Virus record (IMG/VR): IMGVR_UViG_3300028996_000015
DNA: 5,855 nt
From: a virus
Taxonomy: Duplodnaviria > Heunggongvirae > Uroviricota > Caudoviricetes
Reading direction: 5' to 3' (one strand)
Positions 653 to 5,855 of this stretch are shown here, one piece after another. The notes beneath the pieces are model-generated. The model was given only the letters and a program-made list of their open reading frames with translations. It did not search any database and was not told where the DNA came from. Each line of letters opens with the position of its first letter. Positions within the stretch are counted from its first letter, which is position 1. The position numbers and the translations under genes were made by a program.

Positions 653-3600
653 ATGGGTAAAGGCAGCAGTAAGGGGCATACCCCGCGCGAAGCGAAGGAC
701 AACCTGAAATCATCCCAGATGCTGAGCGTGATAGACGCCATCAGTGAAGGGCCGGTTGAAGGTCCGGTGGACGGATTAAAAAGTGTGCTGCTGAACAGTA
801 CGCCAGTGCTGGACAGTGAGGGGAATACCAATATCTCCGGTGTCACGGTGGTTTTCCGGGCAGGTGAGCAGGAGCAGACACCGCCGGAGGGATTTGAATC
901 CTCCGGCTCCGAGACGGTGCTGGGTACGGAAGTGAAGTACGACACGCCGATTACCCGGACCATCACGTCTGCAAACATCGACCGTCTGCGCTTTACCTTC
1001 GGTGTGCAGGCACTGGTGGAAACCACCTCAAAGGGGGACCGGAATCTGTCGGAAGTTCGCCTGCTGGTTCAGATACAGCGTAATGGTGGCTGGGTGACGG
1101 AAAAAGACATCACCATTAAGGGCAAAACCACCTCGCAGTATCTGGCCTCGGTGGTGGTGGATAACCTGCCGCCGCGCCCGTTCAATATACGGATGCGCAG
1201 GATGACGCCGGACAGCACCACAGACCAGCTGCAGAACAAAACGCTCTGGTCGTCATACACCGAAATCATCGATGTGAAACAGTGCTACCCGAACACGGCA
1301 CTGGTCGGCGTGCAGGTGGATTCGGAGCAGTTCGGCAGCCAGCAGGTGAGCCGTAATTATCATCTGCGCGGGCGTATTCTGCAGGTGCCGTCGAATTATA
1401 ACCCGCAGACGCGGCAATACAGCGGTATCTGGGACGGAACGTTTAAACCGGCATACAGCAACAACATGGCCTGGTGTCTGTGGGATATGCTGACCCACCC
1501 GCGCTACGGCATGGGGAAACGTCTTGGTGCGGCAGATGTGGATAAATGGGCGCTGTATGTCATCGGCCAGAATTGCGACCAGTCGGTGCCGGACGGCTTT
1601 GGCGGCACGGAGCCGCGCATTACCTGTAATGCGTACCTGACCACACAGCGCAAGGCGTGGGATGTGCTCAGTGATTTCTGCTCGGCGATGCGCTGTATGC
1701 CGGTATGGAACGGGCAGACGCTGACGTTCGTGCAGGACCGACCGTCGGATAAGGTGTGGACCTATAACCGCAGTAATGTGGTGATGCCGGATGATGGCGC
1801 GCCGTTCCGCTACAGCTTCAGCGCCCTGAAGGACCGCCATAATGCCGTTGAGGTGAACTGGATTGACCCGGATAACGGCTGGGGNNNNNNNNNNNNNNNN
1901 NNNNNNNNNNNNNNNNNNNNNNNNNNNNNNNNNNNNNNNNNNNNNNNNNNNNNNNNNNNNNNNNGGCTGTACCAGCCGGGGGCAGGCACACCGCGCCGGG
2001 CTGTGGCTGATTAAAACGGAGCTGCTGGAAACGCAGACCGTGGACTTCAGCGTGGGTGCTGAAGGGCTTCGCCATGTACCGGGGGATGTCATTGAAATCT
2101 GCGATGATGACTATGCCGGTATCAGCACCGGTGGTCGTGTGCTGGCGGTGAACAGCCAGACCCGGACGCTGACGCTCGACCGTGAAATCACGCTGCCATC
2201 CTCCGGCACCACGCTGATAAGCCTGGTTGACGGTGAGGGTAATCCGGTCAGCGTGGAGGTCCAGTCCGTCACCGACGGCGTGAAGGTGAAAGTGAGCCGT
2301 GTTCCTGACGGCGTTGCTGAATACAGCGTGTGGGGGCTGAAGTTGCCGACGTTGCGCCAGCGCCTGTTCCGCTGCGTGAGTATCCGTGAGAACGACGACG
2401 GCACGTATGCCATCACTGCCGTGCAGCATGTACCGGAGAAAGAGGCCATCGTGGATAACGGGGCGCACTTTGACGGCGACCAGAGCGGCACGGTGAATGG
2501 TGTCACGCCGCCAGCGGTGCAGCACCTGACTGCCGAAGTCACCGCAGACAGCGGGGAATATCAGGTACTGGCCCGCTGGGACACGCCGAAGGTGGTGAAG
2601 GGCGTGAGCTTCCTGCTTCGCCTGACCGTGGCAGCGGACGACGGCAGTGAGCGGCTGGTCAGCACGGCCAGGACGACGGAAACCACATACCGCTTCAGGC
2701 AACTGGCGCTGGGGCGTTACACGCTGACGGTCCGGGCGGCAAATGCGTGGGGACAGCAGGGCGATCCGGCATCGGTATCGTTCCGGATTGCCGCACCGGC
2801 AGCGCCGTCGCGGATTGAGCTGACGCCGGGCTATTTTCAGATAACCGCCACGCCCCATCTTGCCGTTTATGATCCGACGGTACAATTTGAGTTCTGGTTC
2901 TCGGAAACGCGGATTACCGATATCAGGCAGGTTGAAACTACAGCCCGCTATCTTGGCACGGCGCTGTACTGGATAGCTGCCAGTATCAATATCAAACCGG
3001 GCCATGATTATTATTTTTACATCCGCAGTGTGAACACCGTTGGCAAATCGGCATTTGTGGAGGCTGTTGGCCAGCCGAGTGATGATGCATCCGGCTATCT
3101 GGATTTTTTCAAAGGCGAGATAGGGAAAAGCCATCTGGCTCAGGAGCTGTGGACGCAGATTGATAACGGTCAGCTTGCGCCTGACCTGGCTGAAATCAGG
3201 ACGTCCATTACGGATGTCAGCAATGAAATCACGCAGACCGTCAATAAGAAACTGGAAGACCAGAGTGCGGCAATTCAGCAGATACAGAAGGTTCAGGTTG
3301 ATACAAATAATAACCTGAACAGCATGTGGGCTGTGAAGCTGCAGCAGATGCAGGACGGACGCCTTTATATCGCGGGTATTGGTGCCGGTATTGAGAACAC
3401 CCCTGACGGCATGCAGAGTCAGGTGCTGCTGGCGGCGGACAGGATTGCGATGGTTAATCCTGCGAATGGCAACACAAAGCCGATGTTTGTTGGTCAGGGC
3501 GATCAGATATTCATGAACGAAGTGTTCCTGAAATATCTGACGGCTCCCACCATTACCAGCGGCGGTAATCCTCCGGCATTTTCCCTGACACCGGACGGGC

Positions 3601-4136
3601 GGCTGACGGCGAAAAATGCCGATATCAGCGGTAACGTGAATGCGAACTCCGGGACGCTCAACAACGTCACGATTAACGAGAACTGCCGGGTTCTGGGAAA
3701 ACTGTCCGCGAACCAGATTGAAGGCGATCTCGTTAAAACAGTGGGTAAAGCTTTCCCCCGGGACTCCCGTGCACCGGAACGGTGGCCATCAGGGACCATT
3801 ACCGTCAGGATTTATGACGATCAGCCGTTTGACCGACAGATTGTTATTCCGGCGGTGGCATTCAGCGGCGCTAAGCATGAGAGAGAGCATACTGATATTT
3901 ACTCCTCATGCCGTCTGATAGTGCGGAAAAACGGTGCTGAAATTTATAACCGTACCGCGCTGGATAATACGCTGATTTACAGTGGCGTTATTGATATGCC
4001 TGCCGGTCACGGTCACATGACGCTGGAGTTTTCGGTGTCAGCATGGCTGGTAAATAACTGGTATCCCACAGCAAGTATCAGCGATTTGCTGGTTGTGGTG
4101 ATGAAGAAAGCCACCGCAGGCATCAGTATCAGCTGA
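653..4136 (+). CDS. J: Tail tip host-specificity protein / central tail fiber J; a single gene interrupted by an 80-nt N run (1885-1964) that shifts the apparent frame
   Basis: The two track ORFs 653..2014 and 1863..4136 are the two halves of one protein. The N-terminal half ([34 protein letters not shown]...NWIDPDNGW) and the residues after the gap ([31 protein letters not shown]...) both match lambda J as I recall it, and are collinear. Start ATG at 653 with GGAG at 641-644; stop TGA at 4134-4136. Lambda J is known to carry fibronectin-III-like repeats centrally and a C-terminal receptor-binding domain. Confidence 0.95.
1885..1964. other. Run of 80 N (unresolved or masked sequence) inside the J coding region
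   Basis: Seen directly. 80 is not a multiple of 3, so the J frame changes from phase 2 (before) to phase 0 (after); conserved J protein sequence resumes immediately after the run. Confidence 0.99.
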
Positions 4137-4203: not shown

Positions 4204-4803
4204 ATGCGTAAATTATGTGCTGTTATTCTGTCCGCAGTAGTCTGGCTGGTTGCCGCTGGTACGCCAGCGAGCGCAGCAGAGCATCAGTCCACACTAAGCG
4301 CCGGGTATCTTCAGACCCATACTGATATGCCAGGCAGTGATGACCTGAAGGGCATTAACGTGAAATACCGTTATGAATTTACGGACACGCTGGGGCTGGT
4401 GACGTCATTCAGTTATGCCAATGCCAAAGATGAGCAAAAAACGCATTACAGCGATACCCGCTGGCATGAAGATTCCGTGCGTAACCGCTGGTTCAGCATG
4501 ATGGCGGGGCCATCTGTACGCGTGAATGAATGGTTCAGTGCTTATGCGATGGCGGGTATGGCTTACAGCCGTGTGTCGACCTTCTCCGGGGATTATCTCC
4601 GCGTAACTGACAACAAGGGGAAAACGCACGATGTGCTGACCGGAAGTGATGACGGTCGCCACAGCAACACGTCTCTGGCGTGGGGGGCTGGCGTGCAGTT
4701 TAACCCGACCGAATCCGTGGCCATTGACCTTGCTTATGAAGGTTCCGGCAGTGGTGACTGGCGCACTGACGGTTTCATCGTGGGTGTCGGTTATAAATTC
4801 TGA
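4204..4803 (+). CDS. lom: Lom outer-membrane beta-barrel protein (Ail/Lom/PagC/OmpX family), a phage moron
   Basis: 199-aa ORF with an N-terminal signal peptide (MRKLCAVILSAVVWLVAAGTPASA, predicted cleavage before AEHQ), the conserved GINVKYRYE motif, and a C-terminus AYEGSGSGDWRTDGFIVGVGYKF that matches lambda Lom as I recall it, ending in the aromatic residue typical of OM beta-barrels. SD GAGAGG at 4193-4198, ATG at 4204. Position between J and stf is as in lambda. Confidence 0.95.
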   Translation: MRKLCAVILSAVVWLVAAGTPASAAEHQSTLSAGYLQTHTDMPGSDDLKGINVKYRYEFTDTLGLVTSFSYANAKDEQKTHYSDTRWHEDSVRNRWFSMMAGPSVRVNEWFSAYAMAGMAYSRVSTFSGDYLRVTDNKGKTHDVLTGSDDGRHSNTSLAWGAGVQFNPTESVAIDLAYEGSGSGDWRTDGFIVGVGYKF

Positions 4804-4830
4804 TTAGCCAGGTAACACAGTGTTATGACA

Positions 4831-4856
4831 GCCCGCCGGTTCAGGCGGGCTTTTTT
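4831..4856 (+). terminator. Rho-independent terminator downstream of lom
   Basis: GCCCGCC (4831-4837), loop GGTTCA, GGCGGGC (4844-4850), then TTTTTT (4851-4856); GC-rich 7-bp stem. Confidence 0.85.
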
Positions 4857-4867
4857 GTGGAGTGGAT

Positions 4868-5855
4868 ATGGCAGCAGTAAAAATCTCAGGTGTGCTGAAA
4901 GATGGTGCGGGAAAACCAATACAGAACTGCACTATTCAACTGAAGGCAAAGCGTAACAGCACCACGGTACTGGTGAACACGGTGGCTTCTGAAAATCCGG
5001 ATGAAGCCGGACGTTACAGCATGGATGTTGAGTATGGCCAGTACAGCGTCACCCTGCTGGTTGAAGGTTTTCCGCCTTCACATGCCGGGACCATTACCGT
5101 CTATGAAGGCTCCAGACCAGGTACGCTGAATGATTTTCTCGGTGCCATGACGGAAGATGATGTCATGCCGGAGGCATTGCGTCGTTTTGAGGCAATGGTG
5201 GAAGAAGTGGCACGCAACGCCGAAGCCGCCTCTCAGAGCGCAGCGGCGGCAAAGAAATCCGAAACTGCAGCGGCATCATCAAAGAACGCGGCGAAAACCT
5301 CAGAAACGAATGCAGCTAATAGTGCACAGGCGGCAGCGACCTCGCAGACTGCATCGGCAAACTCCGCGACAGCAGCCAAAAAATCAGAAACCAACGCGAA
5401 AAATAGCGAGACAGCCGCAAAGACGAGCGAAACCAACGCAAAGTCCAGCCAGACGGCAGCGAAAACCAGCGAAACGAATGCCAAAGCCAGTGAAACTGCG
5501 GCGAAAAGCAGTCAGGATGCAGCAGCCGAAAGCGAGAGCGCGGCAGCTGGTTCTGCGACTTCAGCTGCTGGATCAGCAACTGCTGCGGCTAACAGTCAGA
5601 AAGCAGCGAAGACGAGTGAAACTAACGCAAAGTCCAGCCAGACGGCAGCGAAGACCAGCGAAACGAATGCCAAAGCCAGCGAAACTGCGGCGAAAAGCAG
5701 TCAGGATGCAGCAGCCGAAAGCGAGAGTGCTGCAGCTGGTTCTGCAAGCGCGGCTGCTGCTTCTGCCACTGCATCAGCTAACAGTCAAAAAGCAGCAAAA
5801 ACCAGTGAAACCAACGCAAAGGTGAGTGAAACAGCGGCTGCGAACTCAGCGAAAG
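4868..5855 (+). CDS. stf: Side tail fiber protein Stf, N-terminal portion; 3'-truncated by the window edge
   Basis: My translation in phase 2 from ATG 4868 (GGAG at 4859-4862) is open to the window end: MAAVKISGVLKDGAGKPIQNCTIQLKAKRNSTTVLVNTVASENPDEAGRYSMDVEYGQYSVTLLVEGFPPSHAGTITVYEGSRPGTLNDFLGAMTEDD..., then an Ala/Ser/Thr/Lys-rich repeat region. The N-terminus matches lambda Stf (orf401) as I recall it. The track ORF 5157..5825 is a different frame of this same repeat and is not the gene. Confidence 0.92.
   Translation, partial: MAAVKISGVLKDGAGKPIQNCTIQLKAKRNSTTVLVNTVASENPDEAGRYSMDVEYGQYSVTLLVEGFPPSHAGTITVYEGSRPGTLNDFLGAMTEDDVMPEALRRFEAMVEEVARNAEAASQSAAAAKKSETAAASSKNAAKTSETNAANSAQAAATSQTASANSATAAKKSETNAKNSETAAKTSETNAKSSQTAAKTSETNAKASETAAKSSQDAAAESESAAAGSATSAAGSATAAANSQKAAKTSETNAKSSQTAAKTSETNAKASETAAKSSQDAAAESESAAAGSASAAAASATASANSQKAAKTSETNAKVSETAAANSAK
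5225..5855 (+). repeat. In-frame 21-nt (heptad) periodic Ala/Ser/Thr/Lys-rich region within stf
   Basis: The translation falls into consecutive 7-residue units (TAAKTSE / TNAKSSQ / TAAKTSE / TNAKASE / TAAKSSQ / DAAAESE / SAAAGSA ...) with no register break for at least 30 heptads, running to the window end. Confidence 0.85.
5420..5797 (+). repeat. Two tandem copies of a 189-bp (63-codon, 9-heptad) unit within stf
   Basis: Copy 1 (5420-5608) and copy 2 (5609-5797) each begin aag acg ag(c/t) gaa ac(c/t) aac gca aag tcc agc cag acg gca gcg. The first ~45 codons differ only at a few mostly synonymous positions; the last ~18 are more divergent. A third, degenerate copy begins at 5798. Confidence 0.9.

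What the first reader, a model, noticed from the sequence alone, without database searches (positions are those of the whole stretch)
5225..5855. Uninterrupted heptad (21-nt) periodicity of small residues across at least 30 repeats in Stf
From about codon 120 of stf to the window end the protein is a continuous array of 7-residue units rich in Ala, Ser, Thr, Lys and Glu, with Ala favoured at fixed positions and no register break. The 189-bp duplication is exactly 9 heptads. This pattern fits an extended fibrous or coiled-coil-like trimeric shaft, though an all-Ala/Ser core is atypical for canonical coiled coils and the fold is not established. On the wrong frame the same stretch gives a long Arg/Lys/Gln-rich ORF (track ORF 5157..5825) that could be miscalled as a gene.
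Basis: partly seen in the sequence, partly recalled or inferred. Interest (0 to 1): 0.4.

Follow-up and report, generated by a model that had tools for sequence, protein, structure and literature searches.

The report
Ala/Ser heptad coiled-coil shaft of Stf
The repeat is real: it is the alanine/serine-rich, three-stranded helical rod of a lambda-type phage side tail fibre, and this kind of rod has already been described and tested in close relatives, so the finding is correct but ordinary.

Summary
Observation confirmed. Codons 120-329 of stf (nt 5225-5854) are exactly 30 heptads in one register, [A/N]-A-[K/A]-x-S-[E/A/Q]-T. Ala fills position 2 in 28 of 30 heptads and Ser fills position 5 in all 30. 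Lag-7 autocorrelation has z = 12.9, and the Fourier peak is at 7.0 residues. The 189-nt duplication equals 9 heptads. The wrong-frame ORF 5157-5825 exists but is not a gene.

Interpretation supported. AlphaFold2 gives one continuous helix over residues 102-328. Homologues with the same PF08400 N-domain have published evidence. In E. coli prophage fibres this region is called the "PCoil" domain (Ghosh 2012): it is alpha-helical by CD, trimeric by SEC-MALLS, and a 16-nm stalk in EM. Ur-lambda Stf has a proximal coiled coil at residues 102-393 (Yu 2025, cryo-EM/ET plus AlphaFold3).

In my survey, 83 of 88 distinct shafts differ in length by whole heptads, a point Ghosh 2012 also made. No atomic structure of the Ala/Ser core exists.

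An identical sequence lies in the E. coli M-17 chromosome, where the ORF is 791 codons with about 35 heptads.

Verdict: already known, low interest.

The parts
4868..5855 (+). stf (side tail fibre) coding sequence: the 5' 329 codons, cut off by the window end
   Evidence: ORF read. PF08400 match E 1e-67. phrog_1419 tail protein E 2e-178. 100% identical to E. coli M-17, where the ORF runs 791 codons. Substitutions in 42 homologues fall mainly at third codon positions (886 of 1202), with 854 synonymous against 288 non-synonymous codon changes.
4874..5143 (+). N-terminal beta-sandwich 'collar' domain (aa 3-92), which anchors the fibre to the tail tip
   Evidence: phmmer match to the solved lambda Stf N-domain 9e7m, aa 3-95, E 7.5e-49. 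Foldseek match to 9e7m, E 3.7e-10. The AF2 model has strands up to residue 78. The domain's role is taken from Yu 2025.
5141..5170 (+). Flexible linker (about aa 92-101)
   Evidence: AF2 pLDDT is below 50 for residues 85-101. In lambda Stf, residues 92-101 are the linker.
5171..5224 (+). Start of the shaft helix (aa 102-119). It includes two heptads with a conventional core (F107/M110, V114/N117) in the same register as the array.
   Evidence: The AF2 helix begins at residue 102. Heptad rows are shown. The lambda coiled coil also begins at residue 102.
5225..5854 (+). 30 uninterrupted Ala(a)/Ser(d) heptads (aa 120-329): the shaft proper
   Evidence: register, positional composition, autocorrelation, Fourier. 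AF2 gives a helix with pLDDT 74-89.
5363..5551 (+). First copy of the 189-nt (9-heptad) repeat
   Evidence: the repeat finder family D2. TRF period 189.
5552..5740 (+). Second copy of the 189-nt repeat, 85% identical to the first. 17 of the 29 differences fall at third codon positions.
5741..5821 (+). Partial, more diverged third copy of the 189-nt unit
   Evidence: TRF reports 2.2 copies ending at 5821.
5157..5825 (+). Wrong-frame ORF (frame +1 of stf, 222 aa, rich in Arg/Lys/Gln): a by-product of composition, not a gene
   Evidence: Listed. In this frame codon changes among homologues are 129 synonymous against 1003 non-synonymous. Only 1 of 210 stf second codon positions is T, so stop codons cannot arise in frame +1. 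No PHROG family matches it.
4830..4851 (+). Terminator-like hairpin followed by a T-run between lom and stf. A GGAG then follows, shortly before the stf ATG.

Best explanation
The stretch encodes the proximal shaft of a lambda-type side tail fibre (Stf). Three identical chains each contribute one long alpha-helix. The helices wind into a parallel, left-handed three-stranded coiled coil. Its inward-facing a and d positions are occupied almost entirely by Ala (heptad position 2) and Ser (position 5), and Lys, Glu and Thr face the solvent. The rod begins at residue 102, just after the beta-sandwich collar domain and a short flexible linker, and is seeded by two heptads with a conventional hydrophobic core. 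In the full-length protein (identical in E. coli M-17) it runs for about 35 heptads to about residue 353. At the standard 0.148 nm rise per residue that is roughly 36 nm. It holds the C-terminal receptor-binding domain away from the tail tip. At the DNA level the rod is built from nested 21-, 42- and 189-nt repeats. Unequal recombination between these repeats adds or removes whole heptads, which changes the fibre's reach while keeping the two end domains in the same angular phase. What is shown here: the periodicity, the coding frame, the predicted helix, homology of the N-domain, and length variation in whole heptads. What is inferred from homologues: the trimeric parallel state and the rod-like shape. 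What is pure inference: the recombination mechanism and any selective value of length tuning.
For: 30 of 30 heptads are in register, with Ser at position 5 in all 30 and Ala at position 2 in 28. Lag-7 z = 12.9 and the Fourier peak is at 7.0. AF2 gives one helix over 102-328 with pLDDT 80-89. PF08400 N-domain, E 1e-67; it matches the solved Ur-lambda Stf collar domain 9e7m. The gene order gpI-gpJ-lom-stf is as in lambda. Lambda, Gifsy-1, 434 and YYZ-2008 Stf all have an uninterrupted Ala/Ser heptad segment starting at residues 117-121, in the same register relative to the N-domain. Published experiments on homologues: PCoil is alpha-helical by CD, trimeric by SEC-MALLS/AUC and a 16-nm stalk in EM (PMC3368898). 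The Ur-lambda Stf trimer has a coiled coil at 102-393 and a visible trimeric bundle (PMC12617516). The same SE[TD]NAK motif region in the DpK2 depolymerase appears as a triple-helical bundle at low resolution. DT57C LtfA forms a three-helix coiled coil. 83 of 88 distinct shafts with the same C-terminal junction differ from the 267-residue form by 0, 1, 2, 4, 9, 11, 14 or 15 whole heptads. The heptad segment alone matches 19 PHROG tail-fibre families.
Against: The oligomeric state of this protein was not tested; only a monomer could be predicted. AF2 often draws a long single helix for low-complexity, Ala-rich sequence, and pTM is only 0.27. No solved structure contains an Ala/Ser-core heptad array: in 9e7m only residues 1-94 are modelled, and in 7lzj/7vyv the helical bundle is not modelled. 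A core of Ala and Ser buries little hydrophobic surface, so stability must come from length, helix propensity or the flanking trimerising domains. The PCoil homologue melts at only 49-52 C. AlphaFold3 folded full-length lambda Stf back on itself, so predictions for such sequences are unreliable. Length variation in whole heptads would also follow from recombination between 21-nt repeats alone, with no selection on protein register.
Confidence: 0.85

Rival explanations
1. The region is an intrinsically disordered, low-complexity spacer. It acts as a flexible tether, and its 7-residue periodicity only reflects the 21-nt DNA repeat that generated it.
For: Composition is strongly biased: Ala, Ser, Thr, Lys and Glu make up about 85%. 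The DNA is a nested tandem repeat, which would give periodicity without any structural cause. The core residues are weakly hydrophobic. The helical bundle is invisible or unmodelled in the depolymerase cryo-EM maps.
Against: The conserved positions are spaced 3/4, as helix-packing positions are, and are far more conserved than the others (30 of 30 and 28 of 30). Diverged homologues whose DNA repeats differ (lambda, Gifsy-1, 434) keep the same Ala/Ser register. Substitutions are mostly synonymous. AF2 gives a helix with pLDDT 80-89. The homologous PCoil has a cooperative, reversible alpha-helical melting transition and is a rod in EM. The lambda shaft is seen as a rigid body in cryo-ET.
Confidence: 0.05
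2. The shaft is a beta-structured fibre: a triple beta-helix or beta-spiral as in T4-type fibres, or silk-like Ala/Ser beta-sheets.
For: Many phage fibre shafts are beta-structured (general knowledge). Ala/Ser-rich repeats occur in beta-sheet silks (general knowledge).
Against: A period of 7 with 3/4 spacing does not fit the period-2 alternation of beta strands. Gly and Pro are almost absent (3 Gly and no Pro in 210 residues). AF2 predicts no strand after residue 78. CD of the homologue is alpha-helical. The lambda proximal shaft is described as a coiled coil.
Confidence: 0.02
3. The helices do not form a simple parallel trimer. They could fold back as antiparallel hairpins into a six-helix bundle, or form an Ala-packed 'alacoil'-type bundle or another oligomer.
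For: Ala every seventh residue is the signature of closely packed antiparallel alacoils (general knowledge). AlphaFold3 predicted a folded-back full-length lambda Stf, and the distal lambda segment is described as six intertwined chains.
Against: Cryo-ET contradicts the folded-back lambda prediction: three collar domains join one extended proximal trimeric bundle. PfN-PCoil is trimeric, and its 16-nm stalk length fits an extended parallel coil. There is no register break or Gly/Pro turn anywhere in the 30 heptads where a hairpin could form.
Confidence: 0.07
4. The +1-frame ORF 5157-5825 (222 aa, rich in Arg/Lys/Gln) is a real overlapping gene.
For: It is a long open frame with an ATG start. 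One database protein (P0045) contains the +1-frame peptide RPRRLHRQT inside its shaft.
Against: In that frame, codon changes among 42 homologues are 129 synonymous against 1003 non-synonymous, versus 854 against 288 in the stf frame. The absence of stops follows from only 1 T among 210 stf second codon positions. No PHROG family matches it. P0045 is a single-member cluster that returns to the stf frame after 9 residues, as a pair of sequencing errors or frameshifts would.
Confidence: 0.01

Closest known systems
[quoted passage not shown] 2025, Sci Adv, PMC12617516; PDB 9e7m/9mgh for residues 1-94)
   Same: Same gene position after J and lom. The N-domain (first 119 residues) is 86% identical. 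The helix starts at residue 102. An uninterrupted Ala/Ser heptad segment lies in the same register relative to the N-domain (lambda 121-342). The fibre is described as a trimer.
   Different: Lambda's heptads are much less regular, whereas here the consensus AAKTSET/NAKxSET is nearly perfect and built from recent 42- and 189-nt duplications. The C-terminal half differs: lambda has a hinge, a gp37-like distal domain and an OmpC-binding tip. The full-length form of this protein (M-17, 2G7b) has a domain matching NF048003 GTA_spike_fiber.
PCoil domain of E. coli prophage collagen-like fibre proteins EPclA/EPclB (Ghosh et al. 2012, PLoS One, PMC3368898)
   Same: It sits directly after the PF08400 (PfN) domain. 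It is Ala/Ser-rich and low in complexity, with a seven-residue A-x-x-A/S-x-x-S periodicity. It is almost devoid of Leu and Ile. Lengths differ by multiples of seven. It was shown experimentally to be alpha-helical and trimeric.
   Different: PCoil is shorter (about residues 101-245), richer in Glu, only 'loosely' periodic, and followed by a collagen triple helix. Here the array is about 35 heptads, strictly periodic, and followed by a globular domain with no collagen.
N-terminal triple-helical bundle of Klebsiella phage K2 depolymerases DpK2 and Depo32 (PDB 7lzj, 7vyv, 7vz3)
   Same: The same sequence motif, SE[TD]NAK[ST]SExAAK, at residues 128-180 (E about 1e-3). It is seen as an extended triple-helical bundle in low-resolution cryo-EM.
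   Different: Only about 5-7 heptads. A different N-terminal anchor and a beta-helix enzyme body. The bundle was not modelled, so it gives no atomic template.
Canonical trimeric coiled-coil phage fibres (T4 fibritin, P22 gp26 needle; from general knowledge) and the DT57C LtfA three-helix coiled coil (PMC10713586)
   Same: A parallel three-stranded alpha-helical rod used as a spacer in a phage appendage.
   Different: In fibritin and gp26 the cores are mainly Leu, Ile and Val, with segment breaks. Here the a and d positions are Ala and Ser for 30 consecutive heptads.

Membership tests
Lambda-type side tail fibre (Stf) / Pfam PF08400 'Prophage tail fibre N-terminal' proteins | An N-terminal PF08400 domain scoring above the Pfam gathering score | tested here: met
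   226.8 bits against a cut-off of 26.6, E 9.7e-68, aa 3-132.
Lambda-type side tail fibre (Stf) / Pfam PF08400 'Prophage tail fibre N-terminal' proteins | N-domain homologous to the solved collar domain of Ur-lambda Stf | tested here: met
   phmmer against 9e7m_Ta, E 7.5e-49 over aa 3-95. Foldseek of the AF2 model against 9e7m, E 3.7e-10, 87% identity.
Lambda-type side tail fibre (Stf) / Pfam PF08400 'Prophage tail fibre N-terminal' proteins | Gene located downstream of the tail-tip genes I and J and of lom | tested here: met
   ORFs at 20-592, 653-4136 and 4204-4803, then stf at 4868. The annotated relatives 2G7b and E. coli M-17 have the same order.
Lambda-type side tail fibre (Stf) / Pfam PF08400 'Prophage tail fibre N-terminal' proteins | Assembles as trimers, four per virion, onto the tail tip and speeds adsorption | not testable with these tools
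   Known only for Ur-lambda.
Lambda-type side tail fibre (Stf) / Pfam PF08400 'Prophage tail fibre N-terminal' proteins | A tail fibre assembly (Tfa) chaperone gene downstream | tested here: inconclusive
   This lies outside the window. In M-17 and 2G7b only short or partial tfa annotations follow, after three (M-17) or four (2G7b) further annotated genes, one of them a second tail-fibre gene.
PCoil-type Ala/Ser-core trimeric alpha-helical coiled coil (Ghosh et al. 2012) | A low-complexity, Ala/Ser-rich region immediately after the PfN domain | tested here: met
   Ala 36% and Ser 20% in aa 120-329, directly after the N-domain.
PCoil-type Ala/Ser-core trimeric alpha-helical coiled coil (Ghosh et al. 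2012) | Seven-residue periodicity with small residues at a/d-type positions | tested here: met
   Lag-7 z = 12.9. Fourier peak at 7.0. Ala in 28 of 30 at position 2 and Ser in 30 of 30 at position 5.
PCoil-type Ala/Ser-core trimeric alpha-helical coiled coil (Ghosh et al. 2012) | Length differences between family members are multiples of seven residues | tested here: met
   83 of 88 distinct shafts are in phase. The in-phase length classes are 267, 260, 253, 239, 204, 190, 169 and 162.
PCoil-type Ala/Ser-core trimeric alpha-helical coiled coil (Ghosh et al. 2012) | Alpha-helical secondary structure | tested here: met
   By prediction only: AF2 gives a helix over 102-328 with pLDDT 80-89. Experimental CD exists only for the homologue.
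PCoil-type Ala/Ser-core trimeric alpha-helical coiled coil (Ghosh et al. 2012) | Parallel trimeric state | not testable with these tools
   The structure tool predicts single chains only. The trimeric state is inferred from EPclA and lambda Stf.
Canonical hydrophobic-core coiled coil (Leu/Ile/Val at a and d) | Mostly large hydrophobic residues at the a and d positions | tested here: not met
   Only the two leading heptads have them (F107/M110, V114). The next 30 heptads have Ala and Ser at those positions.
Beta-structured phage fibre shafts (T4 gp34/gp37-type, triple beta-helix) | Beta-strand repeats forming the shaft | tested here: not met
   No strand is predicted after residue 78. The shaft gives no significant fold match. 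The periodicity is 7 with 3/4 spacing.

The most novel reading that the evidence does not exclude
The strictly regular Ala(a)/Ser(d) core, with Ser invariant at d in 30 consecutive heptads and no atomic structure available, may form a distinct, tightly packed and partly polar or hydrated trimeric coiled coil with unusual mechanics, such as a thin, marginally stable, spring-like rod. Its nested 21/42/189-nt DNA repeats may act as a built-in recombinational 'length dial' that selection uses to match fibre reach to the thickness of the host surface layer.
Probability: 0.15. Interest if true: 0.45.

Novelty: already known. Interest (0 to 1): 0.15.

Why it matters
The result mainly matters for annotation and for phage engineering.

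- **Known module.** It confirms that this low-complexity stretch is the fibre's coiled-coil spacer, a well-known structural module. The module is present in thousands of E. coli prophages: 4916 of 5426 complete genomes have a match to the lom-stf query.
- **Annotation and assembly errors.** The stretch causes spurious wrong-frame or antisense ORF calls, split gene models and contig breaks inside the repeat.
- **Engineering.** Whole-heptad length variants (0 to 15 heptads shorter) occur naturally. This suggests the shaft can be shortened or lengthened in steps of seven residues when designing chimeric fibres.
- **Open point.** The atomic packing of an all-Ala/Ser core has not been solved in any structure.

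Tried and rejected
- **Repeat-specific PSSM.** A position-specific scoring matrix built from the window's own heptads was too specific and missed the heptads of lambda and 434. I replaced it with a generic Ala(a)/Ser(d) Viterbi tracker.
- **Viral-contig scan.** The scan with the N-domain returned only near-identical relatives (96-100%), all with about the same number of heptads, so it said nothing about diversity. Diversity came from the phage tblastn 'spread' list and the protein database.
- **Failed scripts.** One script failed and one printed nothing.
- **Spurious PDB hits.** PDB sequence hits to the RNA polymerase II RPB1 C-terminal domain (E about 1e-3) arise from shared 7-residue Ser/Thr periodicity (YSPTSPS repeats). 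I rejected them as homology.
- **Weak NCBIfam hits.** Matches of the shaft to DnaX, SMC and NlpC/P60 models are far below their cut-offs and are low-complexity noise.
- **Depolymerases as templates.** I hoped 7lzj, 7vyv and 7vz3 would give an atomic template for the SETNAK motif, but the papers say the helical bundle was not modelled.
- **Fold search.** Foldseek of the AF2 model matched only through the N-domain; a lone long helix carries no fold information.
- **The 255-residue length class.** This class (23 proteins) first looked like an out-of-phase exception. It has a different C-terminal junction (PPLPDIW, with the heptads continuing further), so it is not comparable.
- **Trimer prediction.** Not possible with the tools available.
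Full report
**What is in the window**

The window carries the distal part of a lambda-like tail gene module.
- A gpI-like ORF at 20-592.
- A gpJ-like ORF at 653-4136, interrupted by 80 masked N at 1885-1964.
- lom at 4204-4803.
- A terminator-like hairpin at 4830-4851.
- An ORF that starts at ATG 4868 and runs off the window end after 329 codons.

This last ORF is stf. Residues 3-132 match Pfam PF08400 'Prophage tail fibre N-terminal' (E 1e-67). Residues 3-95 match the solved collar domain of Ur-lambda Stf, PDB 9e7m (E 7.5e-49; Foldseek E 3.7e-10).

The closest phage is Escherichia phage 2G7b, 97% identical over 4800-5855. Window 4204-5855 is 100% identical to the chromosome of E. coli strain M-17. 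There the same reading frame continues for 791 codons without a stop.

**Check of the observation**

Written in sevens from codon 120 (nt 5225), the protein gives exactly 30 heptads up to the window end, with no register break. The consensus is [A/N]-A-[K/A]-x-S-[E/A/Q]-T.
- Position 2 is Ala in 28 of 30.
- Position 5 is Ser in 30 of 30.
- Position 1 is Ala or Asn in 29 of 30.
- Position 3 is Lys or Ala in 29 of 30.

Residue identity is 0.53 at lag 7, 0.57 at lag 14, 0.50 at lag 21 and 0.52 at lag 28. Shuffles give 0.20 +/- 0.025, so z is 11.5 to 14.2. All other lags are at or below expectation.

The Fourier spectrum of the Ala indicator has its maximum at period 7.00, about 100 times the median power. 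The Ser indicator peaks at 7.0, 3.5 and 2.33. A Viterbi tracker that allows register shifts finds one segment, 118-329.

The slightly higher lag-14 value and the 42-nt TRF arrays show that the elementary unit is a double heptad, AAKTSET-NAKxSET. The 189-nt repeat is real: TRF gives period 189, 2.2 copies and 88% matches, and the repeat finder gives 5363-5551 against 5552-5740 at 85%. It equals 9 heptads.

Two heptads upstream (106-119, RFEAMVE EVARNAE) keep the same register. They carry Phe/Met and Val/Asn at positions 2 and 5, so the array is preceded by a short conventional core.

**Which frame is coding**

I compared 42 distinct colinear homologues over the repeat region.
- 886 of 1202 nucleotide differences fall at third codon positions of the stf frame.
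- Changed codons in the stf frame are 854 synonymous against 288 non-synonymous.
- In frame +1, which holds ORF 5157-5825, they are 129 against 1003. In frame +2 they are 110 against 1028.

The long open +1 frame has a simple cause. Only 1 of the 210 second codon positions in the array is T, and every stop codon begins with T. The +1 product matches no PHROG family. Phage PY54 carries an annotated antisense 'hypothetical protein ORF26' inside the equivalent repeat region of its fibre gene.

**What the stretch is**

AlphaFold2 was run on a single chain with a 21-sequence alignment. It gives beta strands up to residue 78, a low-confidence linker at 85-101, and then one unbroken helix over 102-328 with pLDDT 80-89 through most of the array.

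The literature has already answered the fold question for homologues.
- **Ghosh et al. 2012 (PMC3368898).** They studied E. coli prophage fibre proteins with the same PF08400 domain. The Ala/Ser/Glu-rich region after it, which they called 'PCoil', has a loose A-x-x-A/S-x-x-S heptad. It is alpha-helical by CD with a reversible transition at 49-52 C, trimeric by SEC-MALLS and ultracentrifugation, and a roughly 16-nm stalk in rotary-shadowing EM. PCoil lengths differ by multiples of seven.
- **Yu et al. 2025 (PMC12617516).** They describe Ur-lambda Stf as a trimer with a collar domain at 1-91, a linker at 92-101 and a proximal coiled coil at 102-393. The proximal bundle is visible in cryo-EM, and the rest was built from AlphaFold3 segments fitted to tomograms.

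The helix start I obtain (residue 102) coincides with theirs.

**Comparison across relatives**

The same tracker finds one uninterrupted Ala/Ser heptad segment in each of these:
- lambda, 121-342;
- Gifsy-1, 117-342;
- 434 and YYZ-2008, 117-235, each followed by collagen Gly-X-Y repeats.

All are in the same register relative to the N-domain. More distant fibres (JenP2, PY54, Hafnia phage yong3) have shorter, interrupted segments. The heptad segment alone matches 19 PHROG tail-fibre families, so the module is widespread.

Among database proteins and viral contigs sharing the QPLPDVW junction to the C-terminal domain, there are 88 distinct shaft sequences. In 83 of them the distance from the N-domain anchor (MTEDD) to the junction equals 267 minus 0, 1, 2, 4, 9, 11, 14 or 15 heptads. 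The five exceptions are singletons. The variant shorter by 9 heptads lacks exactly one 189-nt unit. This reproduces the 'multiples of seven' point of Ghosh et al. on a different subfamily.

**Most likely mechanism**

Three chains form a parallel, left-handed three-stranded coiled coil. Ala sits at a, Ser at d and Ala/Asn at the flanking position. Lys, Glu and Thr lie on the surface. The coil is nucleated by the two hydrophobic heptads after the linker.

In the full protein the rod runs from about residue 102 to about 353, which is 35 heptads counted from R106. With the textbook rise of about 0.148 nm per residue this is about 36 nm. The rod spaces the C-terminal domain away from the tail tip. 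That domain matches NF048003 GTA_spike_fiber and lies outside the window.

The nested DNA repeats make unequal recombination likely, which would produce whole-heptad length variants.
- Shown here: periodicity, frame, predicted helix, homology, and length variation in whole heptads.
- Inferred from homologues: the trimeric parallel state and rod shape.
- Inferred only: the recombination mechanism and any adaptive tuning of length.

**What remains unknown**

No solved structure contains this kind of core.
- 9e7m and 9mgh stop at residue 94.
- The depolymerases 7lzj, 7vyv and 7vz3 carry the same SE[TD]NAK motif at residues 128-180. Their triple-helical bundle was seen only at low resolution and was not modelled.
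- How 30 consecutive Ser layers pack is therefore open.

**Rivals**

- A disordered spacer is unlikely. The 3/4-spaced positions are selectively conserved, register is kept in homologues whose DNA repeats differ, substitutions are mostly synonymous, and the homologue has CD and EM data.
- A beta-structured shaft is contradicted by the period, the near absence of Gly and Pro, AF2 and the CD data.
- A fold-back or antiparallel bundle cannot be excluded by my tools. It is contradicted for lambda by cryo-ET, and here by the absence of any break in 30 heptads.
- The +1-frame gene is excluded.

**Verdict**

The feature is the already described Ala/Ser-core coiled-coil shaft of lambda-type side tail fibres. 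This copy is an unusually regular, recently duplicated example that is common in E. coli prophages. Interest is low. The residual interest lies in the unsolved atomic packing of the Ala/Ser core, and in the practical consequences for annotation and assembly.

Noticed in passing
L092 4665-7040 (E. coli M-17, NZ_CP068394.1), equal to window 4868 onward: The RefSeq (PGAP) annotation splits this intact 791-codon ORF. It gives a 'pseudogene' N-terminal fragment (4665-5031, 'missing C-terminus') plus a separate CDS that starts at an internal in-frame GTG (codon 114) and is named 'phage head spike fiber domain-containing protein'. Translation shows no stop between them.
   Followed up: yes
window 5855 (window end), and proteins P0001-P0120: Most database homologues are labelled 'partial'. 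Several (P0063, P0070, P0071, P0088, P0098, P0108) end inside the heptad array, in clusters of up to 444 member sequences. This suggests short-read assemblies often break in this repeat. The window itself also ends inside the array.
   Followed up: partly
L087 5049-5312 (-), Yersinia phage PY54: An annotated 'hypothetical protein ORF26' lies antisense inside the Ala/Ser heptad region of the PY54 tail fibre gene (4498-6570).
   Followed up: partly
P0045, residues about 158-166: This database protein contains RPRRLHRQT, which is exactly the +1-frame reading of the array. It then returns to the stf frame one residue out of phase. Either it has a pair of sequencing errors or it carries compensating frameshifts.
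   Followed up: partly
window 1885-1964: A run of 80 N (masked or unknown bases) inside the gpJ-like gene. It shows up as X runs in several ORF translations.
   Followed up: no
window 4830-4851 (+): A strong terminator-like hairpin (8 pairs, 7 of them G-C) with a T-run lies between lom and stf and ends 16 nt before the stf ATG. stf would therefore need read-through or its own promoter. No sigma-70-like site was found in 4750-4950.
   Followed up: partly
L001 6069-8444, L092 4665-7040, L090 4498-6564: The C-terminal domain that follows the shaft in the full-length protein starts at ...QPLPDVWIPFNDSLDMITGF. It is shared with the tail protein of the unrelated Queuovirinae phage JenP2 and matches NCBIfam NF048003 (GTA_spike_fiber domain, E 1.7e-13). 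This is a mosaic joint placed exactly at the end of the coiled coil.
   Followed up: partly
L083 4498-5811 (phage 434), L084 4498-5667 (YYZ-2008), L086 1208-2647 (P-EibA): In these relatives the same N-domain and a shorter Ala/Ser coiled coil are followed by collagen-like Gly-X-Y repeats. The coiled coil therefore serves as a universal adaptor between the collar domain and very different distal modules.
   Followed up: partly
window 745-768: A small 12-nt tandem repeat (2 copies, TGAAGGGCCGGT) near the 5' end of the gpJ-like gene encodes the duplicated peptide GPVEGPVDG.
   Followed up: no
PDB searches: The shaft gives weak but repeatable sequence hits (E about 1e-3) to the RNA polymerase II RPB1 C-terminal domain. 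The only cause is that both are Ser/Thr-rich with a 7-residue period. This is a useful example of periodicity-driven false homology.
   Followed up: yes
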